Of a DNA stretch of 25,856 nucleotides, positions 7,084 to 16,896 are shown piece by piece (the first letter of the stretch is position 1; every line of letters begins with the position of its first letter). Below the pieces are notes generated by a model that worked only from the letters and a program-made list of their open reading frames with translations, did no database searches and was not told where the DNA came from. Both the position numbers and the translations under genes were made by a program. Origin of the DNA: an uncultured Gammaproteobacteria bacterium (GTDB taxonomy: Bacteria > Pseudomonadota > Gammaproteobacteria > GCA-002705445 > GCA-002716945); contig CAJWMM010000001.1 of the NCBI GenBank assembly GCA_913043035.1, forward strand, positions 1-25,856, in the 5' to 3' direction.

Positions 7084-7101
7084 ATTACAAAAATGTTACA
7101 A
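7084..7101 (-). promoter_or_regulatory. Pho-box-like 11-bp direct repeat upstream of the porin
   Basis: Minus strand TTGTAAC-ATTT-TTGTAAT: two half-sites with 11-bp period, compared with canonical CTGTCAT-AAAA-CTGTCAT. Confidence 0.65.
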
Positions 7102-7108
7102 GATAATA

Positions 7109-7795
7109 TTAATTTTTATCATCAAGTGAATAGCCAGATGATCGTATGGTTCGTATTACCTTGCATTCTTCACTAACGCTTAAGGCTTTGCGTAATCTTC
7201 TTATGTGTACATCTATAGTTCTATCTGTGATATAAACATTAGTGCCCCATACTGCATCAAGTAGTTGCTGTCTACTGTAAACCCTTCCTGGATTTTTCAT
7301 TAAAAATTCCAAAATTCTATACTCCCTTGGTCCGAGCTTAGTTTCTTTGTCACAACAGTAAACTCTATGCATATCAGTATCCATAACTATATTTCCATAT
7401 TTAAGTTTAGATGTAAGACTAGATTCATTGCTTCTTCGCAGTAGAGCACTTATCCGCGCCAGAAGCTCTTTTGGGCTAAAAGGCTTAATAAGATAATCAT
7501 CTGCGCCATTGTCAAAACCTTGGAGTAAATCCTCTTCTTCGCCCTTAGCTGTAAGCATTATCACTGGGGTTCTTTGTATCTCTTTTTTAGATCTTATAAA
7601 CTTACAGATCTCTGTGCCCTCGATGTCAGGCAACATTCTATCGAGAAGTATAAGGTCAGGCTTCAACTCCTGAATTTTGAGCATACCGTCATATCCATTT
7701 AACGAAAAATCAAATTTATATCCAGCAGATTTGATATTGTATTCTAGTAAGGAGACCAGTGATTCTTCATCTTCAATAGAGAAAATGGTTTTCAC
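7109..7795 (-). CDS. phoB: Phosphate regulon response regulator PhoB
   Basis: Receiver domain (IEDE, DLILLDRMLP, PVIMLTAKGEEED, GADDYLIKPFSPKEL) and winged helix (GRVYSRQQLLDAVWG, RTIDVHIRRLRKAL, IRTIRSSGY). GTG start overlaps the phoU TAG by one base. Confidence 0.95.
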   Translation of the reverse strand: MKTIFSIEDEESLVSLLEYNIKSAGYKFDFSLNGYDGMLKIQELKPDLILLDRMLPDIEGTEICKFIRSKKEIQRTPVIMLTAKGEEEDLLQGFDNGADDYLIKPFSPKELLARISALLRRSNESSLTSKLKYGNIVMDTDMHRVYCCDKETKLGPREYRILEFLMKNPGRVYSRQQLLDAVWGTNVYITDRTIDVHIRRLRKALSVSEECKVIRTIRSSGYSLDDKN

Positions 7796-8493
7796 TACTC
7801 TGATTCACCTTTTGGTCTTGGAGTTGTGATAATTTCACCAGTTACAGTATAAAATATTTCTTCTGCAATGTTAGTTATATGGTCACCCGCTCTCTCTATA
7901 GTTTTTATGGTGAAAAGTAATTTAGTATTCGCTAATGTCTTAATCTTGTTCGGTTTACTTTTGATATCTTCTATAATTTGGTTATAAATCATCTGATAGT
8001 GCTGATCTATAGCTGCATCAGCATTTCTAACTTCTAGTGCTTTATCTTTATTTTTTGTGACGTAAGCATCAATTACACGTTTGAGCTGACCTTGAACCAT
8101 GACTGTCATTCTTAAAATTTCATTTTTTATTTCTGCTGGTGGAATTTCCTCCAGAGCCTGAATTCTCAGGGAGATATTTTTACAATAATCTCCTAATCTC
8201 TCTAAATCTGTTGATATCTTAAGTGCGGTTAAACCCTCTCTGAGATCTATTGCCATAGGAGATCGCAAAGTTATAAAAGTTATAACCTGATCCCTTATCT
8301 TTCCGTCAAACGCATCCAACTTTGGTTCATTTTCTAAGACATCCTCAACTGTGGAGGCAGAGCCAGTATCTATAATATGATGTAGGAGTTTATATTGCTC
8401 CTCAACTAATGTAGCCATTTTAGTTACGGATCTTCTTATCGATGCAATGTCGTCATCAAAAGATGAAACAATATGACCGCTTTGTTCACTCAT
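7795..8493 (-). CDS. phoU: Phosphate signalling/uptake regulator PhoU
   Basis: GHIVSSFDDD start, PMAIDLRE, KISTDLERLGDYCKNI, KTIERAGDHITNIAEEIFYTVTG. GAGGT SD upstream. Confidence 0.95.
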   Translation of the reverse strand: MSEQSGHIVSSFDDDIASIRRSVTKMATLVEEQYKLLHHIIDTGSASTVEDVLENEPKLDAFDGKIRDQVITFITLRSPMAIDLREGLTALKISTDLERLGDYCKNISLRIQALEEIPPAEIKNEILRMTVMVQGQLKRVIDAYVTKNKDKALEVRNADAAIDQHYQMIYNQIIEDIKSKPNKIKTLANTKLLFTIKTIERAGDHITNIAEEIFYTVTGEIITTPRPKGESE

Positions 8494-8512
8494 ATAACTT
8501 ACCTCTCATTAA

Positions 8513-8541
8513 ATTATATCAATAATCCCTGTTTTAACCAA
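8513..8541 (-). promoter_or_regulatory. Candidate internal sigma70 promoter for phoU-phoB
   Basis: Minus strand TTGGTT (8541-8536), a 17-nt spacer ending in TG-A, then TATAAT (8518-8513), just upstream of the phoU SD (8505-8501). Confidence 0.55.
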
Positions 8542-9298
8542 TTCTACCAGTTATATAATCTTGAGTTTTTGCATGCTCTGGATTGGAAAAAATATTCTTT
8601 GTGAGTCCAGTCTCCACAAGCTCACCCATGTGCATGTAAGCTGTTCTATTAGACACTCTTGCTGCTTGTTGCATTGAATGTGTAACTATAACAATTGTAT
8701 ATTTCTCTTTTAGCTCCTCAATCAATTCTTCAATTTTTGCAGTTGCAATTGGGTCAAGTGCTGAGCAAGGTTCATCCATTAAAATGATTTCAGGATTCAC
8801 TGCAAGAGCTCTCGCAATACAGAGCCTTTGTTGCTGACCACCTGAAAGTCCAGTACCCGGTTCGAATAACCTATCTTTAACTTCGTTAAATAATCCTGCC
8901 TTTTGTAAGCTCGATACAACAATTTCATCTAGATCATCTTTGTTTTTATACATACCGTGTAGTTTAGGACCATATGCAATATTCTCATAAACTGATTTTG
9001 GAAAAGGATTAGGTTTTTGAAATACCATTCCTACTCTTGTTCTTAAGCTCACAGGGTCTGTGGACGCATCATTTATATTCTCCCCGTCAATCAAAACTTG
9101 CCCATTGTATTTACAAATTTCTACTAAATCATTCATTCTATTGAAGCACTTTATGAGAGTTGATTTACCACAACCAGATGGTCCAATTAATGAAGTGACT
9201 TCATTTGCAAAGATATTTAAATTTACATCAAATAGTGCTTGCTTTTTTCCATAGAAAACATCTAAATTTTTCACTGCTATTTTCAAAGACTCGCTCAT
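8534..9298 (-). CDS. pstB: Phosphate ABC transporter ATPase
   Basis: Walker [82 protein letters not shown]. Confidence 0.98.
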
Positions 9299-9308
9299 AA
9301 ATTCTTTG

Positions 9309-10526
9309 TCACCATTTTTTCTCTAATTTCTTTCTCAAGTACACCGCAGTAATATTTAGTAAAAACAAAAAGATTAATAATACTATTATAGCTGCAGATG
9401 TTCGTTCAACAAATGCACGCTCAGGACTATCCTGCCATAAAAATATTTGTACTGGAAGCGCGGTAGATGCATCTAATGGTCCTTGAGGAATATCAACGAT
9501 GAACGCTACCATCCCTATCATCAACAAAGGTGCTGTTTCTCCGATAGCTCGAGCAATACCTATTATTGTCCCAGTCAATATACCTGGCATAGCCAGCGGT
9601 AAAGTAAAATTGAATATGGTTTGAACTTTACTTGAACCCAGACCAATGGATGCTTCTTCAATTGATGGAGGAACGGACTTTATGGCAGACCTTGAGGCAA
9701 TCACAATGGTCGGAAGCGTCATCAAACCAAGTGTAAGCCCCCCAACTAAAGAGGCCGAACGTGGTAATTCAAAAAAATTGAGAAAAATAGCTAACCCTAG
9801 TAAACCGAATACAATTGAAGGCACAGCAGCTAAATTATTAATATTAGTCTCGATTAAATCAGAAAAAGCATTTTGTTTTGTTAACTTCTCTAGATAAATT
9901 GCAGTTAAGACACCTAGAGGGAAAGAAGTTACAAAGGCAATAAGTATGGCAAATAGTGATCCATAAATAGCTCCTAGTATACCAGCCATTTCAGGGTTCC
10001 TACTATCTGCTGAGCCAAGAAGATATCTATTAAATTGAAGTTCTATAAGATTCATTTTCACGAATTCATCAACAAACTTCATCTGGCTAGGTTTAATTCT
10101 TCCTGCGCTGTTGCCTTGTCTAGCCACAGTGCCTTTAAAATACATATCTAAATCATCAGAGGCCAAAAAATAATAATACCCATCAATCACATCACCATCA
10201 TATGCTTCTAGCATTTCCTTAAATTCAATATAAGCACCTGGGCTGAATAAAGAATAGAGATTTTTCTTATCAGACCTACTCTGAGCCTCAGGAAACATAT
10301 TTCTTAGATTTTTTCGCAGAGTTGACCTTGCATCTAGCTCTGATAAATTTTCACCTTTCTCAATTTGAATCTTGACCCCTAGATAGGTTTGATTGAATGC
10401 GCTGAAACCTGTACTGAAAATTTTAAATAACAGAACCAAGAGTAAAAAAATAGCAAGACCTACAGCTAGTAAACCATAAAATTGGAATCTTTTTTCACTC
10501 TTATTTCTTTGTATAATATTACTCAT
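9309..10526 (-). CDS. pstA: Phosphate ABC transporter permease PstA with N-terminal DUF3333-like extension
   Basis: [46 protein letters not shown]-type motif ([15 protein letters not shown]), ALPVQIFLW, plus an extra periplasmic region ([12 protein letters not shown]). Confidence 0.95.
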
Positions 10527-11895
10527 ATTGCTCTCTAAATTTCTTCACGATAGATAGTGAAATTATATTAAGTATTAAAGTAAGGAAGAATAAGACGAAT
10601 GCAAGTGCGAATGCAGACATGGTTTTAGCACTATCAAATTCTTGATCCCCAGTAAGGAGGCCGACAATTTGAACGGTAACTGTTGTCACTGCGTTAAAAG
10701 GATTCGCAGTAAGATTTGCCGCGAAACCAGCTGCCATTACCACAATCATCGTCTCGCCTATTGCTCTTGAGAAAGCTAGTAAAAAACTTCCTACTATTCC
10801 ATGAAACGAAGCTGGAATAATTACTCTTGTTGTTGTCTCTGATAATGTGGCGCCCATTGCCAAAGAACCCTCTTTCAATGACCTAGGCACAGCCGATAAT
10901 GAATCATCCGTCAGTGATGCGATAAAAGGTATTATCATGATACCCAAGACTGATCCTGCTATTAAAGCACTCTCTGAACTAAAGCCATCAATATTAAAAA
11001 AGATACCTAGATCTCTAAAAAATGGACCTACGGTTATAACCGCAAAGAAACCATAAACGACAGTCGGAATACCTGCTAATATTTCAATAATTGGTTTTGC
11101 ATACGATCGAACTCTATTTGAAGCATATTGGGATAGATAAATCGCAGAAAATAAACCTATTGGCCCAGCAACTAACATAGCTATTAATGATATTAACAAA
11201 GTACCTGTGAATACCGGAACTGCTCCAAAGCTTCCTGATGACCCGACTTGACCTTCTCTAATTGACATCTGCGGACTCCAATGCGTTCCAAATAAAAATT
11301 CTGTGACTGCAACTGATTCAAAAAAACGAAGGGTTTCAAATAATAATGACAATACAATTCCAAGCGTAATAAAGATGGCAAATATTGATGCATATTTCAT
11401 TGTTCTGATTACAATGTCTTCGACTAAATCACGTGCTTTAAATTTAGCGGTGACTAAATTTAGTGAATATCTGAATGTAATAAGAGTAATGATTACTATC
11501 ACAATAGACTTCAACGCTAAACTCATTTTAGTAGAAGTCTCATAATACTCGACTGCAGAAGAAAAATTAGAATGATTCATCAGGGTGTCACTCGCACCAG
11601 CGACAAAACTTTTTACACCAGAAACGTAAAAGCTTACCTTATATGGGTCAACAACATCAGAAAAATATGACTCAAGATTAGTTTTAAATATTGAATTCTC
11701 TAGCCAAGACCAAAGAAATAATAGAATGATCGCAGGCGCGATTGTTAGTATTGCCGAAAAGAGACCATGGTAATGTGGCTGTGAATGAACATCTAGAGGG
11801 TTTATAGCGTTCAGAGCTGATGCTTTTCTTTTGCTTAAGAAAAAACTATAAGCAGTTAGGCCTAGGATTGTTAGTATTAAAAATTCAATAGTCAT
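10519..11895 (-). CDS. pstC: Phosphate ABC transporter permease PstC with N-terminal extension
   Basis: HSQPHYHG N-terminal motif, FLFGTHWSPQM, FGAVPVFTGTLLIS, KPIIEILAGIPTVVYGFF, SRAIGETMIVVMAAG, TTVTVQIV. Confidence 0.95.
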   Translation of the reverse strand: MTIEFLILTILGLTAYSFFLSKRKASALNAINPLDVHSQPHYHGLFSAILTIAPAIILLFLWSWLENSIFKTNLESYFSDVVDPYKVSFYVSGVKSFVAGASDTLMNHSNFSSAVEYYETSTKMSLALKSIVIVIITLITFRYSLNLVTAKFKARDLVEDIVIRTMKYASIFAIFITLGIVLSLLFETLRFFESVAVTEFLFGTHWSPQMSIREGQVGSSGSFGAVPVFTGTLLISLIAMLVAGPIGLFSAIYLSQYASNRVRSYAKPIIEILAGIPTVVYGFFAVITVGPFFRDLGIFFNIDGFSSESALIAGSVLGIMIIPFIASLTDDSLSAVPRSLKEGSLAMGATLSETTTRVIIPASFHGIVGSFLLAFSRAIGETMIVVMAAGFAANLTANPFNAVTTVTVQIVGLLTGDQEFDSAKTMSAFALAFVLFFLTLILNIISLSIVKKFREQYE

Positions 11896-11932
11896 ATATA
11901 TTTCATCTTTAGAAACATATTATTCACTAATT

Positions 11933-11950
11933 GTTACAAATATATTAAAT
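11933..11950 (-). promoter_or_regulatory. Weaker Pho-box-like site upstream of pstC
   Basis: Minus strand ATTTAAT-ATAT-TTGTAAC. The second half-site is identical to a half-site upstream of the porin; the first is degenerate. Confidence 0.35.
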
Positions 11951-11979
11951 GTCTAAATTATCTAAATATTGTTTAACAA

Positions 11980-12006
11980 TAGCGCCAATATTGATATATG
12001 ACGCTA
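11980..12006 (-). terminator. Stem-loop downstream of pstS (weak terminator or mRNA-stabilising hairpin)
   Basis: Minus strand TAGCGTCA-tatatcaatat-TGGCGCTA: 8-bp stem with one G-U pair, 11 nt after the pstS stop, followed only by a weak TTGTT. Confidence 0.5.
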
Positions 12007-12017
12007 ATTCTTCCTAT

Positions 12018-13049
12018 CTAGTATTGGATGTTAGCTAGGCTTTTACTGTCTTTTTGGAATTTAGCGCGCATTGCTTTAGGCATTGGTATAAGACCATTAT
12101 CTAACAAATAGCCCTCATCTCCGATAGCATTCTCACTCATGAATTCTGCCATGTATTCTTTAATGCCTGGAATAGATCCTATATGATCTTTCTTCACGTA
12201 AAAAAATAATGAGCGTGAGACTTTGTATTCGCCAGAAGCTATTGTCTCAAAAGTCGGACTTATTCCATCAACAACTGCTCCTTTAACTGAGTCTGTGTTT
12301 TGATCTAAAAAACTAAACCCAAAAACACCCACGGCATTTGGATTACTGACAAGTTTTTGAATTATAAGATTATCATTTTCCCCAGCTTCAATATATCTCC
12401 CATCTTCTCGTATGGTATAGCATAACTTCTTCCATGAAGATTTATCTTTCTTCTTAAAAGCTTTTATCCAAGGGATAGTATTACATCCACCTCCAAGAGC
12501 TAATTCAACAAATGCATCTCGTGTTCCTGATGTTGGAGGAGGACCGTAAACTTCGATTTTAATATCCGGTAAAGATGAATTTACGTCTCTCCATGTCACA
12601 GATTCGTTGACACATGTAACCTCATCTTGCATTCCACATGGCACTTTTGCTGCTAGTGCTAGATATAAATCCTTCCTTGAAATGTCAAACGAAGGTCCAT
12701 TATTAGAATTAGCTACAACAATACCATCAAATCCAATTTTATGTTCTATAATATCGTTGATTCCATTTTCCGCGCACAAACTAATTTCTTTCTTTTTTAT
12801 TCTTCTTGAAGCATTAGTTATATCAGGTTTAGAGGGGCCTTTACCAGAACAGAATAATTTTAGTCCTCCCCCAGAACCAGTTGATTCAATAATTGGCGTC
12901 TTAAATCCATTATCTGCTCTTCCAAAAGTTTCTGCAACGACTGTGGCAAACGGGTAAACGGTTGAAGAACCTACAATCCTTATAGTATCTCTAGCTTCAG
13001 CTGGTAATGTCATAAGTAATAAAACTAGAAACAGTGAAATTTTATTCAT
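12018..13049 (-). CDS. pstS: Phosphate ABC transporter substrate-binding protein
   Basis: Signal peptide ending AEA, then RDTIRIVGSSTVYPF, ESTGSGGG, NASRRIK, GPPPTSGTRDAF, IEAGENDNLI, YKVSRSLFFYVK. Start moved to ATG 13049 because GGAG (13061-13058) lies 8 nt upstream; the track's GTG at 13058 overlaps that SD. Confidence 0.96.
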   Translation of the reverse strand: MNKISLFLVLLLMTLPAEARDTIRIVGSSTVYPFATVVAETFGRADNGFKTPIIESTGSGGGLKLFCSGKGPSKPDITNASRRIKKKEISLCAENGINDIIEHKIGFDGIVVANSNNGPSFDISRKDLYLALAAKVPCGMQDEVTCVNESVTWRDVNSSLPDIKIEVYGPPPTSGTRDAFVELALGGGCNTIPWIKAFKKKDKSSWKKLCYTIREDGRYIEAGENDNLIIQKLVSNPNAVGVFGFSFLDQNTDSVKGAVVDGISPTFETIASGEYKVSRSLFFYVKKDHIGSIPGIKEYMAEFMSENAIGDEGYLLDNGLIPMPKAMRAKFQKDSKSLANIQY

Positions 13050-13108
13050 TATTATCACTCCAAAAAAAATTAACTTCCATCATTACAAATGATTTAAATT
13101 AAGCACAA

Positions 13109-13126
13109 ATGAACATTTTGTTACAG
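13109..13126 (-). promoter_or_regulatory. Pho box upstream of pstS
   Basis: Minus strand CTGTAAC-AAAA-TGTTCAT, 18 bp, aligns with CTGTCAT-AAAA-CTGTCAT. A further half-site TTGTAAT lies at 13088-13082. Confidence 0.7.
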
Positions 13127-13131
13127 ATTTG

Positions 13132-14349
13132 TTAATTCATATCGTCAGAATATTTTGGGATACTTACCGAAAACTTACTGCCTTTTCCAACTTCGCTAGT
13201 AACCTCTAGCTTACCCTCATGACGATTTAAAATATGTTTTACAATCGCTAAGCCTAACCCAGAGCTATTACGCCGATAATCCACACTATTTTGAGCTCTA
13301 AAAAATCTCTCTGTCAATCTTGCAATCTCATTGGTTGGTATCCCAATCCCATTATCAATAATAGAGATTTTCTCATACTCAGCTAACGATTGGTGTTCTA
13401 TACTGATTTTACCCTCTTCGTCACCATAAGTGACCGCGTTTTCAAGTAAATTCTCAAAAACTTCAATGATTTGATCAGTGTTACCTCTTACAAATATCGA
13501 AGTTACTTGTTGAGATAATTCGATAGATATTTTTCTCTTTTTGGCAATTACATTCAGTGCATCCAGGGCAGAGTGTATGCATGCACCTAAATCAACTTTT
13601 TCATTTGGTAATTGAAATTCTGATTCCTCGACTCGTGAAAGAGATAATAAATCATTTACTAGCCTCTGCATTCTCTCTGCTTCACTTTTTATTGTTTGGA
13701 AAAATTCTTTCTTTTTTTTCTCGTCATCCTTAGCCGGTCCTTCAATTGTTTCTATAAAACCAAGAATGGAGGCAAGAGGCGTACGTAATTCATGGCTTAC
13801 ATTTGATACAAAATTTGTTTTAAGTTTATCAACAGCTTTTAGATCAGAGATATCAGTAATTGATAATAAAACAAATTTGCTTTTATGTTTGATGGTAAAT
13901 AATTGAGCTAACAAATATTTTTCTACTGATTGAAAAATACTAAATTCGACACTTCTAAACACATTTTTTGCGTTAATGCTTTCAATTGCCGAATCTATAT
14001 CCGGTGAACGTAGAGAGATAGCTATGGGTTGTCCGTCTGGATTGCCTCCACAAAAGTTCTTGAAAGCCTGATTTGATGATCTTATTATGAAGCCACTATC
14101 TACAATTACCATTGGTTGTTCATTATGCGTAAATAACGCAGACTTTTTGATAATACTATATTCAGTTGGATTTTTTGAAGTATCTAATTTTGATTGAACT
14201 ATAATTTCATTAGATTGTAATTTCTTATTTGTGAAATAAAAAGCCACGCCATAAAGACTTACTAAAGTAAAAATATATATCTGAGGAACATTAAATACAA
14301 AAAGTAAATATACAGTTGGAATTGAGACTATTAAAAAAAGCTTTTTCAT
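13132..14349 (-). CDS. phoR: Phosphate regulon sensor histidine kinase PhoR
   Basis: N-terminal TM hairpin, PAS-like region, H-box FVSNVSHELRTPL, EAERMQRLVNDLLSLSRVE, N-box FENLLENAVTYG, G-boxes DNGIGIP / ERFFR / SGLGLAIVKHI. Heads the pst-pho cluster. Confidence 0.93.
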   Translation of the reverse strand: MKKLFLIVSIPTVYLLFVFNVPQIYIFTLVSLYGVAFYFTNKKLQSNEIIVQSKLDTSKNPTEYSIIKKSALFTHNEQPMVIVDSGFIIRSSNQAFKNFCGGNPDGQPIAISLRSPDIDSAIESINAKNVFRSVEFSIFQSVEKYLLAQLFTIKHKSKFVLLSITDISDLKAVDKLKTNFVSNVSHELRTPLASILGFIETIEGPAKDDEKKKKEFFQTIKSEAERMQRLVNDLLSLSRVEESEFQLPNEKVDLGACIHSALDALNVIAKKRKISIELSQQVTSIFVRGNTDQIIEVFENLLENAVTYGDEEGKISIEHQSLAEYEKISIIDNGIGIPTNEIARLTERFFRAQNSVDYRRNSSGLGLAIVKHILNRHEGKLEVTSEVGKGSKFSVSIPKYSDDMN

Positions 14350-14416
14350 TTTGTATAAGGAATTGTTGTCAAGATATGTGCATGTTATTATCTCACTATT
14401 AACATAATATACTAAT

Positions 14417-15568
14417 ATGACAGATATATTAATCCATAAATCATCGAAATATATAAAAGAAGATAGAGATTACTATTGTTCGGACATTCGTGATAAACAC
14501 GGAATGATTAAACCTAGTGATGATCTTATCAGTTTATCTTGTGACTCTGAGATAATAAGACCAGATATTGATTGTGGTGAACTGTGCTCTATTTACTACC
14601 CGTTTGAAAAACATTCATTTAATAGAATTTACTTAGGCATAAGTTTCCCATTATTTGCTAATAATTGGGGAGCGGCCTTTCTTAGATATCTAATGTATCT
14701 TATCAAAAAAGATGGCGCAGTGATTCTTCCTGTATATGCCGAGCGTCAAGGTGTAGAGAAGAACTATTGGTCAAGAAGCTCGCTTGAAGTTATGTTTCAA
14801 AGCAGACAAAAATGGTGGGGTATGAGTAATATTTGGGCTGAAAATGACGGTGTTATGTCTATGAGAATAGGGAAAAAAGAACCTCCTCTAATAGATAGTA
14901 CTATAAATCATTTGTTCGATAATGAGTTTCAAAAAGCCAATGGCTCTGTAGATGAAGATTTTATAAAAACTGTGATGAGGCATCACAATAATGCAACTAC
15001 TAGTGCAATCATCGAACAAATTATTATAAATTATCATGGCAGAAAAAAATCTGTCTCTTTACTTAATGTCCTAGGTGATTCATTATTGCCATCAGAAATT
15101 CTCATGAGCGACTATGTAAATGTTATAGAGGCAACTCAACATTTTAACCAAAACTCTGAATCAAATTACAAGAATGGTTTTTTACCAGAATCTTTTAGTA
15201 AAAATCTGGGGGTTATCGTTAATGATCAGATCCCTCATGTAAGTGAAAAAAAATACGATATAATTACGATGATTGATTCTCTTTGTGGTAGATCTGAGAA
15301 CGAAAAACTATCAATTATTTCTGACCTTAAAGGTTTACTTAATAGGAAAGGTATAGTTGTAATTAGGGATAGTGCATTTGATAAAAAGGAATTCTGTGAG
15401 AAAATAAAAAATGATTTAAACGTAAACGAGCTAGATCAATACTCCTCCATTGTAGCTGCCAAACACATCAAAGATAAAAAGATTGCACATTATTCTGACA
15501 TAATTTTTGATGAGCTCAACAAAGAAAATCAAAGCAGACAAAGTGTATTTAGTATTATTCAATTTTAG
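14417..15568 (+). CDS. Hypothetical protein, 383 aa, with two degenerate class I SAM-methyltransferase-like repeats
   Basis: Long ORF divergent from phoR, 2 nt from the next gene. Repeat 1: YPFEKHSFNRIY...AFLRYLMYLIKKDGAVIL. Repeat 2: KKYDIITMIDSL...IISDLKGLLNRKGIVVIRD. Both resemble the methyltransferase beta4 to 'L.PGG.l' segment, but no intact GxGxG motif I is visible. The ORF is likely real; the fold call is tentative. Confidence 0.75.
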   Translation: MTDILIHKSSKYIKEDRDYYCSDIRDKHGMIKPSDDLISLSCDSEIIRPDIDCGELCSIYYPFEKHSFNRIYLGISFPLFANNWGAAFLRYLMYLIKKDGAVILPVYAERQGVEKNYWSRSSLEVMFQSRQKWWGMSNIWAENDGVMSMRIGKKEPPLIDSTINHLFDNEFQKANGSVDEDFIKTVMRHHNNATTSAIIEQIIINYHGRKKSVSLLNVLGDSLLPSEILMSDYVNVIEATQHFNQNSESNYKNGFLPESFSKNLGVIVNDQIPHVSEKKYDIITMIDSLCGRSENEKLSIISDLKGLLNRKGIVVIRDSAFDKKEFCEKIKNDLNVNELDQYSSIVAAKHIKDKKIAHYSDIIFDELNKENQSRQSVFSIIQF

Positions 15569-15570
15569 TT

Positions 15571-16896
15571 ATGGATATTTTTCTTAATCATCTCAGCAGT
15601 TTCCTTTGGGGTCCTTTTACGCTCGCATTTCTGCTATTAGTTGGAGTGTATTTAATGTATGGGCTAAGTGCATATCCACTTACAAACGTAGGTTATGCTC
15701 TAAGGTCTTTGTTTAAAAAAGAAGATAAAGAGTCAGGCGATATCTCTTCTTTTGAATCACTCATGACCGCTCTATCTGCAACTGTTGGAACAGGAAATAT
15801 TGCAGGTGTTGCGACTGCAATTTTTCTCGGTGGCCCAGGTGCTATTTTTTGGATGTGGATTACTGCGATATTTGGTATGGCCACAAAATATGCGGAGGCT
15901 TTTCTTGCTATTAAATACAGAGAAAAGAACCTAAACGATGAGTATGTTGGTGGTCCTATGTATTACATTAAAAATGGTTTAAGTCAAAGGTTTAGTTATC
16001 TAGCTTATTTTTTTGCTCTATTCGGGATGATCGCTGCTTTTGGAATTGGTAACGGTGTTCAGTCTAATTCTGTTGCTCAAGTTGTTACAAATGAATTTGA
16101 AATTGATAAATTGACAGTAGGCATAGTAATAGCTTTTCTAGTTACGCTAGTTATCTTGGGAGGGATAAAGAGTATAGGCAAAACTGCATCTAAGTTAGTA
16201 CCTATTATGTCATTGATTTATATCATTGGAGGTCTATATATTATATTAATAAATTATAATCAAATACCTACGATATTTTTTATGATCATAGAGTCTGCCT
16301 TCACTGGTAGTGCTGCAAGTGGTGGTTTTGCTGGTGCGACTATTTGGATGGCGATAAGATTTGGTGTATCACGAGGTGTTTTCTCTAATGAAGCGGGGCT
16401 AGGTAGCTCACCTATTGCACATGCTGCTGCTAGAACAAACAGTCCAATAAAACAAGGATCTGTCTCTATGCTTGAGCCACTTATTGATACGATTATTGTT
16501 TGCACGATAACTGCTTTTGTAATTCTATTGAGCCAAAGTTGGTTATCTGGTGTAAATGGTGCAGCTCTCACGTCTAATGCGTATGAACAAGGTCTACCCT
16601 CGTTTGGAAAATACATAGTGATTTTTGGATTAGTGCTCTTTGCATTTAGTACCATTATAGGCTGGAGTTACTATGGGGAAAAATGTGCAGAATTTATATT
16701 TGGAAATAGAATTATAATGCCTTATAGAATATTTTGGATCATAATTATTCCTGTTGGAGCTGTTATTGAGTTAAACCTTGTATGGTTAATAGCTGATATA
16801 ATGAATGCACTAATGGCATTACCGAATTTAATTGCTCTAGTACTACTAAGTCCTATAGTATTTAAGGAAACTAGAGCATATTTAAAAAATGAATAA
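15571..16896 (+). CDS. agcS: Alanine/glycine:cation symporter (AGCS family)
   Basis: ISSFESLMTALSATVGTGNIAGVATAI, GGPGAIFWMW, GGPMYYI, GIGNGVQSNS, GVSRGVFSNEAGLGS, FAFSTIIGWSYYGEKC, MALPNLIAL. Confidence 0.95.
   Translation: MDIFLNHLSSFLWGPFTLAFLLLVGVYLMYGLSAYPLTNVGYALRSLFKKEDKESGDISSFESLMTALSATVGTGNIAGVATAIFLGGPGAIFWMWITAIFGMATKYAEAFLAIKYREKNLNDEYVGGPMYYIKNGLSQRFSYLAYFFALFGMIAAFGIGNGVQSNSVAQVVTNEFEIDKLTVGIVIAFLVTLVILGGIKSIGKTASKLVPIMSLIYIIGGLYIILINYNQIPTIFFMIIESAFTGSAASGGFAGATIWMAIRFGVSRGVFSNEAGLGSSPIAHAAARTNSPIKQGSVSMLEPLIDTIIVCTITAFVILLSQSWLSGVNGAALTSNAYEQGLPSFGKYIVIFGLVLFAFSTIIGWSYYGEKCAEFIFGNRIIMPYRIFWIIIIPVGAVIELNLVWLIADIMNALMALPNLIALVLLSPIVFKETRAYLKNE

What the first reader, a model, noticed from the sequence alone, without database searches (positions are those of the whole stretch)
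14417..15568. Unknown 383-aa protein with tandem degenerate methyltransferase-like domains, between phoR and an Ala/Gly symporter
Seen: two segments echo the class I methyltransferase core (PFEKHSFNRIY...FLRYLMYLIKKDGAVIL and KYDIITMIDSL...DLKGLLNRKGIVVIRD). The expected Gly-rich SAM motif is eroded (possibly SLLNVLGDSLL). A distinctive aromatic motif (YWSRSSL...KWWGMSNIWAENDGVMSMRIG) lies between them. The gene shares a 67-bp divergent region with phoR and is 2 nt from agcS. Known: tandem methyltransferases occur in glycine/sarcosine and phosphoethanolamine methylation, and SAM-dependent enzymes build phosphorus-free betaine lipids under P stress. Inference: either a new SAM-fold enzyme linking amino-acid uptake to P stress, or a non-catalytic ligand-binding partner of the transporter. 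This is the least explained gene in the window.
Basis: partly seen in the sequence, partly recalled or inferred. Interest (0 to 1): 0.65.

Follow-up and report, generated by a model that had tools for sequence, protein, structure and literature searches.

The report
Pseudo-methyltransferase tied to dimethylsulfide oxidation
This gene encodes an undescribed two-domain protein with a methyltransferase fold that has lost its usual cofactor motifs and occurs almost only in marine bacteria carrying genes for breaking down the climate-active gas dimethylsulfide, so it is probably a helper in that pathway rather than in phosphate stress or amino-acid uptake.

Summary
The ORF is real, and both halves have the class I methyltransferase fold (AlphaFold pTM 0.91; C-domain Z 15, N-domain Z 8). 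The proposed links to phosphate stress and agcS fail. agcS is adjacent in 27 of 81 loci and phoR is divergent in 18, all in one host family, and the gene stays when the pho-pst cassette is absent.

The family instead tracks dimethylsulfide (DMS) catabolism. Of 50 carrier genomes, 49 have methanethiol oxidase (MtoX) and all 50 have a specific AlkB/XylM-like oxygenase; the class background is 46/400 and 15/400. In Methylophagaceae (14 of 83 genomes) the gene lies in that island. The M. thiooxydans orthologue MDMS009_52 ends a gene run induced 29- to 136-fold by DMS; its own expression is unreported.

Its nearest relatives are glycan-locus methyltransferases with an intact C-terminal SAM site. 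The marine clade lost that site and instead fixed 54 near-invariant residues in the N-domain. Best reading: a repurposed, probably SAM-independent cytoplasmic accessory of the DMS-to-methanethiol module; the chemistry is inferred only. Shared ancestry explains part of the co-occurrence. The scan already proposed the AlkB-like operon as a DMS monooxygenase on other DNA; this family's genome-wide link to it was not found in earlier notes.

The parts
14417..15568 (+). Gene for the 383-aa tandem class I methyltransferase-fold protein; cytoplasmic, no signal or transmembrane segment (max 19-aa hydropathy 1.15)
14417..14899 (+). N-terminal domain (aa 1-161): truncated methyltransferase fold that starts at beta1 and has no Gly-rich loop. 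It holds 54 near-invariant positions in the marine clade (e.g. H7, D16, Y20, R25, D26, S44, G74, S76, N82, W84, Y107, E109, W118, R120, R130, W133) and is the inferred functional site
14810..14872 (+). Family signature KWWGMSNIWAENDGVMSMRIG (aa 132-152): flexible loop plus beta6-beta7 hairpin of the N-domain, near-invariant in the marine clade and not conserved in the glycan-locus relatives
14984..15565 (+). C-terminal class I methyltransferase domain (aa about 190-383), with only 8 near-invariant positions. The SAM and catalytic motifs seen in relatives (Y..G..YK, DxGGGxG, beta2 Asp, GSLLY, HEN) are lost
15056..15088 (+). Eroded motif I (SLLNVLGDSLL, aa 214-224), aligned to DxGGGxG of the distant clade
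14363..14391 (+). Conserved sigma70-like promoter element (TTGTTG-17 nt-TATTAT with extended TG), seen also in several relatives that lack the pho-pst cassette; inferred from conservation only
15571..16896 (+). agcS amino-acid carrier, coupled to the gene only in the host family; judged operon packing in a streamlined genome rather than a functional partner
13132..14349 (-). phoR of a pho-pst cassette that is present in 18 and absent in 8 host-family loci; not functionally tied to the gene

Best explanation
The protein is a repurposed tandem pseudo-methyltransferase that works as a cytoplasmic accessory of a DMS/methanethiol catabolic module: a membrane AlkB/XylM-like oxygenase with reductase, GST and FadL channel, then periplasmic methanethiol oxidase MtoX, then Sox. 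SHOWN: the fold; loss of the C-domain SAM motifs; the shift of conservation to the N-domain; co-occurrence with the oxygenase and MtoX; physical location inside that island in Methylophagaceae. INFERRED: it no longer does canonical SAM-dependent methylation in the C-domain. A remodelled pocket at the carboxy edge of the N-domain sheet (H7/K8 after beta1, S44 after beta2, S76/P78/N82 after beta4, Y107/E109/Q111 after beta5, with aromatic Y19/Y20/W84/W118/W133) binds a methylated-sulfur intermediate made on the cytoplasmic side (methanethiol, a methylthio adduct or a sulfonium). It then converts or hands on that intermediate between the oxygenase and MtoX or methionine synthesis. My odds: about 0.7 that the functional link to the module is real, and about 0.55 given the link that it acts on a small molecule rather than as a scaffold or regulator.
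For: MtoX/SBP56 match in 49 of 50 carrier genomes (48 over cut-off) vs 46 of 400 class genomes. AlkB-like subfamily in 50 of 50 (49 at E<1e-150, one contig-edge fragment) vs 15 of 400. Within Methylophagaceae: family 14/83, oxygenase 14/83, MtoX 15/83, with overlaps of 12 and 13 and 67 genomes lacking both of each pair. In seven of these genomes the gene lies 5.5-7.3 kb from alkB and 10-28 kb from mtoX. The only named isolates retrieved, M. thiooxydans and M. sulfidovorans, are the two mtoX-positive Methylophaga in PMC6548844 Table S8. The orthologue MDMS009_52 follows same-strand genes whose transcripts rise on DMS: _226 1359 vs 10, _61 618 vs 12, _199 601 vs 21; DUF4242 _82 protein rises 9.33-fold (the three transcript tags mapped by accession offset, _82 by sequence). 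A terminator-like site follows the gene and none lies between it and the upstream gene. The gene is retained in 30/36 host-family genomes of about 0.6-1.2 Mb. The host has the mtoX cluster, soxB/soxX and DUF4242. Methylophagaceae copies nest inside the marine clade while their SecA falls outside the other carriers' group, which suggests transfer with the island. Conservation flip: 54 N vs 8 C near-invariant sites in the marine clade, 2 vs 13 in relatives.
Against: Nine of 15 class genomes with the AlkB-like oxygenase (eight with MtoX) lack the family (five rechecked with the wider profile), so it is not obligatory. Four of the five carrier lineages fall in one weakly supported SecA clade (SH-aLRT 89) with three oxygenase-positive non-carriers, so there may be only 2-3 independent events, and in Methylophagaceae co-presence follows from linkage. 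MDMS009_52 is not in the paper's Tables S4-S6, which are extracts. Pocket geometry could not be inspected because no coordinates were available; the pocket is inferred from strand positions. No ligand or activity is shown.
Confidence: 0.4

Rival explanations
1. Same pathway, but a non-catalytic scaffold, maturation factor or sensor for a protein of the module (oxygenase, GST, reductase or the co-distributed DUF4242/SCO4226-like protein). The conserved N-domain surface would be a protein interface.
For: 54 near-invariant positions in 161 residues is more than an active site usually needs (inference). Conserved loops 21-30 and 130-136 are poorly ordered in the model. Strong DUF4242 hits occur in 26/29 carriers vs 1/9 oxygenase-positive non-carriers, and DUF4242 lies two genes upstream in Methylophaga. 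Inactive SAM-fold domains act as scaffolds or sensors elsewhere (RsmC N-domain, anamorsin, SAMTOR; own knowledge; these appear among weak hits).
Against: The gene is unlinked from the oxygenase in four of five lineages and is missing from 9/15 oxygenase genomes. Two carriers (G449, G450) lack DUF4242.
Confidence: 0.25
2. A lineage housekeeping protein (for example a divergent RNA, protein or cofactor methyltransferase) inherited vertically in one clade of marine Gammaproteobacteria, which hitchhiked once into the Methylophagaceae DMS island.
For: Single copy, fixed synteny among housekeeping genes in four lineages. Those lineages may share an ancestor. An earlier agent reached 'core gene' for one lineage (e1-956426).
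Against: It persists inside the island across 15 diverged loci, in two different downstream contexts. It was not found in 69 of 83 Methylophagaceae, nearly all of which also lack the oxygenase and MtoX. SAM motifs are lost.
Confidence: 0.2
3. An active SAM-dependent methyltransferase with an unusual cofactor site, for example methylating methanethiol or DMS (MddA/MddH-like detoxification or sulfonium formation).
For: Both domains keep the fold. Some members keep partial motif I (CDIGGDGLL) and weak Pfam methyltransferase hits (best E 3.7e-5 in 10 of 70). Relatives have intact SAM sites.
Against: The motif I Asp/Gly residues, the beta2 Asp and the post-II motif are not conserved across the marine clade (top residue 27-50%). 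The N-domain has no Gly-rich loop. No NCBIfam hit and no Pfam methyltransferase hit for the window protein.
Confidence: 0.1
4. One reading: a P-stress enzyme (betaine lipid or osmolyte methylation) or a ligand-binding partner of AgcS.
For: Translational coupling to agcS in all 27 host-family loci. Foldseek's top full-length hits are tandem phosphoethanolamine methyltransferases.
Against: No agcS or pst cassette near the gene in 54 loci of four other lineages. The gene is kept in 8 host-family loci without the cassette. No Pho-box-like repeat in the divergent region. The PMT hits have TM 0.25-0.30, rmsd 17-22 and about 10% identity, so they only reflect two domains of the same fold.
Confidence: 0.05

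Closest known systems
Uncharacterised tandem methyltransferases of glycan/capsule loci (P0141, P0149, P0247 etc.; one cluster member named 'class I SAM-dependent methyltransferase', Ca. Brocadiaceae)
   Same: True homologues over both domains (profile E to 1e-27); same two-domain layout; sister clade with SH-aLRT 100
   Different: They keep an intact C-terminal SAM site and a variable N-domain. They sit in loci with sulfotransferases, hexapeptide acyltransferases, glycosyltransferases or ABC exporters, usually beside or fused to a polysaccharide-deacetylase-like protein. The marine clade has the reverse conservation pattern and no such context.
Tandem phosphoethanolamine N-methyltransferases (plant and nematode PMT) and RsmC
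   Same: Two class I methyltransferase domains in one chain, one of which can be vestigial (own knowledge)
   Different: TM 0.25-0.30 and about 10% identity. Those enzymes keep at least one canonical SAM site; here neither domain has a conserved one.
SAM-fold non-enzymes (anamorsin N-domain, SAMTOR)
   Same: Methyltransferase fold without canonical activity; weak structural hits to the N-domain (2yui, 9o5d)
   Different: Eukaryotic and single-domain; hits are tied with many ordinary methyltransferases, so they are an analogy only.
The unidentified 'DMS methyltransferase' of Methylophaga thiooxydans (Boden 2010, as cited in PMC6548844)
   Same: A methyltransferase-fold gene inside the DMS-induced gene run of that very strain (MDMS009_52)
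   Different: That activity was suggested to be cobalamin-dependent. This protein has no corrinoid or TIM-barrel methyltransferase domain, and the neighbouring AlkB-like oxygenase is a better candidate for the first step.

Membership tests
Class I SAM-dependent methyltransferases | Rossmann-like seven-stranded fold | tested here: met
   C-domain Z 15.1, rmsd 3.0, 173 aa; N-domain Z 8.2, rmsd 3.2, 123 aa, listed rows all SAM-fold
Class I SAM-dependent methyltransferases | Gly-rich motif I (D/E-x-G-x-G-x-G) after beta1 | tested here: not met
   C-domain reads NVL-GDSLL; motif positions 27-50% conserved in the marine clade vs 97-100% for D217/G219/G222 in relatives; N-domain has H7-K8-S instead
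Class I SAM-dependent methyltransferases | Acidic residue at the end of beta2 | tested here: inconclusive
   Lost in the C-domain (Asp 83% in relatives, not conserved in the marine clade). The N-domain has D43 in many but not all members
Class I SAM-dependent methyltransferases | SAM binding and methyl transfer | not testable with these tools
   needs ITC or an assay
Tandem phosphoethanolamine / glycine-sarcosine methyltransferases | Sequence or whole-chain structural match to the family with an intact SAM site | tested here: not met
   No Pfam or NCBIfam hit over cut-off; Foldseek TM 0.25-0.30, rmsd 17-22; SAM motif eroded
Pho regulon / P-stress lipid remodelling | Conserved linkage to pho/pst or lipid genes and a Pho box | tested here: not met
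   18/81 loci next to phoR, all one family; no 11-bp repeat in the divergent region; no btaA/plcP-type gene among the recurrent neighbours annotated
Cobalamin-dependent DMS/thiol methyltransferases | Corrinoid-binding DxHxxG Rossmann domain or TIM-barrel methyltransferase | tested here: not met
   Both domains are class I fold; no conserved DxHxxG in the alignment
DMS/methanethiol oxidation module (AlkB-like oxygenase + MtoX) | Co-occurrence and linkage with module genes | tested here: met
DMS/methanethiol oxidation module (AlkB-like oxygenase + MtoX) | Induction by DMS of this gene | tested here: inconclusive
   Neighbours induced; gene not listed in the extracts; RNA contigs cannot rank genes
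Anti-phage defence systems | PADLOC model match | tested here: not met
   no hit for the window protein or the Methylophaga orthologue

The most novel reading that the evidence does not exclude
The protein is a SAM-independent enzyme of DMS catabolism with new chemistry in a methyltransferase fold (methyl or methylthio transfer from DMS, a sulfonium or a methanethiol adduct). It might be the methyltransferase activity inferred but never identified in Methylophaga thiooxydans, and it would be a core gene of streamlined 1.1-Mb marine DMS oxidisers.
Probability: 0.12. Interest if true: 0.9.

Novelty: new variant of a known kind. Interest (0 to 1): 0.57.

Why it matters
The first enzymatic step of DMS breakdown in Methylophaga is still unidentified (PMC6548844, PMC9563715). 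This family adds a named, testable locus (MDMS009_52) in a cultured strain. It follows the candidate DMS oxygenase and methanethiol oxidase even where it is unlinked, including in marine bacteria with genomes of about 1.1 Mb that keep few spare genes. It is also a clear case of a glycan-type methyltransferase whose conservation moved from the active domain to the formerly variable one. It may serve as a marker for a subset of marine DMS oxidisers.

Tried and rejected
Pfam, NCBIfam, PADLOC and PDB sequence searches of the window protein gave nothing over cut-off; DUF3196 and RIF1 hits were rejected as noise. Atlas searches returned unnamed clusters and generic methyltransferases.

The complex prediction of the Methylophaga orthologue with the AlkB-like oxygenase gave no answer (score 0.04) and is not used either way. 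Laying four M. thiooxydans RNA runs was uninformative, because contigs cover the whole stretch at flat depth.

An H4MPT-pathway link was considered: Mch is in 5/5 carriers but also 3/5 oxygenase-positive non-carriers, and most Methylophagaceae lack the gene although they are methylotrophs (own knowledge). metY lies nearby in 25/81 loci, but this follows slt-metY synteny in two lineages and was not taken as evidence.

The careful SecA tree and the one-clade test did not finish; only the quick tree is cited, and carrier rows have odd composition. Fisher tests overstate because genomes are related and are not relied on. Paper searches for AlkB plus DMS, or for this family, found nothing beyond PMC6548844; subscription papers are not covered. 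The window's own genome has no AlkB-like hit. Its contigs C33 and C39 end exactly at the genes that flank the operon in G187, so this is read as an assembly gap.

Full report
Observation. The ORF at 14417-15568 encodes 383 aa. It lies 67 nt from the divergent phoR start and 2 nt before agcS. The protein has 245 homologues and no named family. It has no membrane segment.

Fold. AlphaFold2 on a 70-row alignment gave pLDDT 88.4 and pTM 0.91. Residues 169-383 match class I methyltransferases at Z up to 15.1. Residues 1-163 folded alone match SAM-fold proteins at Z up to 8.2. That Z is modest, but the list is uniform and the strand order fits a methyltransferase core that begins at beta1. Foldseek's best whole-chain hits are tandem phosphoethanolamine methyltransferases at TM 0.25-0.30, which shows only that both have two such domains. 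The aromatic signature belongs to the end of the N-domain, not to a linker.

Origin. A profile search found a more distant group of about 380-460 aa proteins. They have an intact C-terminal D-x-G-G-G-x-G, a beta2 Asp, GSLLY and HEN motifs. Four of five loci examined carry glycan-modification or export genes, and the gene is usually beside, or fused to, a polysaccharide-deacetylase-like protein. The marine clade is separated from them with full support. In it the C-domain motifs are gone and conservation has moved: 54 near-invariant sites in the N-domain against 8 in the C-domain, versus 2 against 13 in the relatives. The marine set is less diverged overall, so only the within-group N-versus-C contrast is meaningful. 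Close relatives show the same bias in codon changes.

Test of the phosphate and agcS idea. I compared 81 loci. They fall into five lineage-specific neighbourhoods. agcS is adjacent in the 27 host-family loci only. phoR is divergent in 18 of them, and 8 lack the pho-pst cassette yet keep the gene, several with the same promoter-like element. The divergent region has no Pho-box-like repeat, while the porin upstream region has one. The idea is not supported.

What the family does track. In 15 Methylophagaceae-type loci the gene follows an AlkB/XylM-like oxygenase, globins, a GST, a 2Fe-2S reductase and a FadL channel; 9 loci also have DUF4242 and a nitronate-monooxygenase-like gene, and 8 have soxCD just downstream. 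The M. thiooxydans orthologue is MDMS009_52. Its upstream neighbours are among the most DMS-induced genes in PMC6548844; the gene itself is not in the published extracts. Across 50 carrier genomes from all five lineages, 49 match methanethiol oxidase and all 50 match the oxygenase subfamily. In a 400-genome class sample the background is 46 and 15, and only 8 genomes carry the family. Among 83 Methylophagaceae the three genes occur in 14, 14 and 15 genomes with overlaps of 12 and 13. The host itself has the mtoX cluster, sox genes and DUF4242, and its relatives carry the oxygenase operon directly before mtoX. The family is found in 30 of 36 genomes of the host family, whose complete genomes are about 1.1 Mb.

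Limits. The family is nested in the module, not equal to it: 9 of 15 oxygenase-positive genomes lack it. A quick SecA tree puts four carrier lineages in one weakly supported clade with some non-carriers, so much of the co-occurrence may be inherited. The independent evidence is the Methylophagaceae case, where the gene nests inside the marine clade, is patchy, and sits in the island. That the oxygenase acts on DMS is itself an inference from induction and linkage; earlier notes of this scan proposed it, and I re-derived it from the paper's tables before reading them.

Mechanism. Shown: fold, motif loss, conservation shift, co-occurrence, linkage. Inferred: the function now lies at the carboxy edge of the N-domain sheet, where invariant polar and aromatic residues follow beta1, beta2, beta4 and beta5. 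I favour binding or conversion of a methylated-sulfur intermediate on the cytoplasmic side (0.4). A scaffold or sensor role in the same module (0.25), a housekeeping role with one hitchhike (0.2), an unusual active SAM enzyme (0.1) and the phosphate/agcS idea (0.05) follow.

Verdict. This is a real, undescribed family: a new variant of the class I methyltransferase fold that fails the SAM-motif test. It has a strong but partly non-independent link to DMS/methanethiol oxidation and is directly testable in a cultured strain. Interest 0.57.

Noticed in passing
G187:C1 about 365100-374900 (L116:10103-19897); G000 contigs C33 end and C39 end: Host-family genomes of about 1.1 Mb carry alkB-like oxygenase, GST, 2Fe-2S reductase, small membrane protein, FadL, mtoX, SCO1/MauG and TlpA as one run, and many have a second oxygenase copy. 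They look like streamlined DMS/methanethiol oxidisers with H4MPT and Sox genes.
   Followed up: partly
L081, L082, L133, L134; P0225: The distant relatives pair with an unnamed 494-519 aa polysaccharide-deacetylase-like protein, fused to it in the 958-aa P0225, in glycan loci with sulfotransferases and hexapeptide acyltransferases: an undescribed glycan-modification pair.
   Followed up: partly
G000:C55:505-777; L035:6559-6840: A DUF4242/SCO4226-like protein co-distributes with the family (26/29 carriers vs 1/9 oxygenase-positive non-carriers) and often lies near mtoX; it is 9.3-fold up on DMS in M. thiooxydans.
   Followed up: partly
window 7109-14349 versus L007-L010, L012-L014, L017: The phoR-pst-phoU-phoB cassette is variable in the host family. 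Where it is absent, a porin and a PHO4-family transporter gene lie upstream instead.
   Followed up: partly
window about 7084-7100: Two TGTAA half-sites 11 bp apart on the minus strand upstream of the porin, Pho-box-like.
   Followed up: no
L043 and L074: Bins labelled Rhodothermaceae and Mycobacterium carry the gene with gammaproteobacterial synteny (Porisulfidus-type and slt/bactofilin-type); probably misbinned or mislabelled.
   Followed up: no
L036:7576-7995 and 12 other Porisulfidus-type loci: A conserved 139-156 aa protein with no Pfam match lies directly upstream of the gene in this lineage only.
   Followed up: no
G417:C23:16590-17686: One host-family genome has the gene split by a frameshift near its 3' end (possibly an assembly error).
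   Followed up: no
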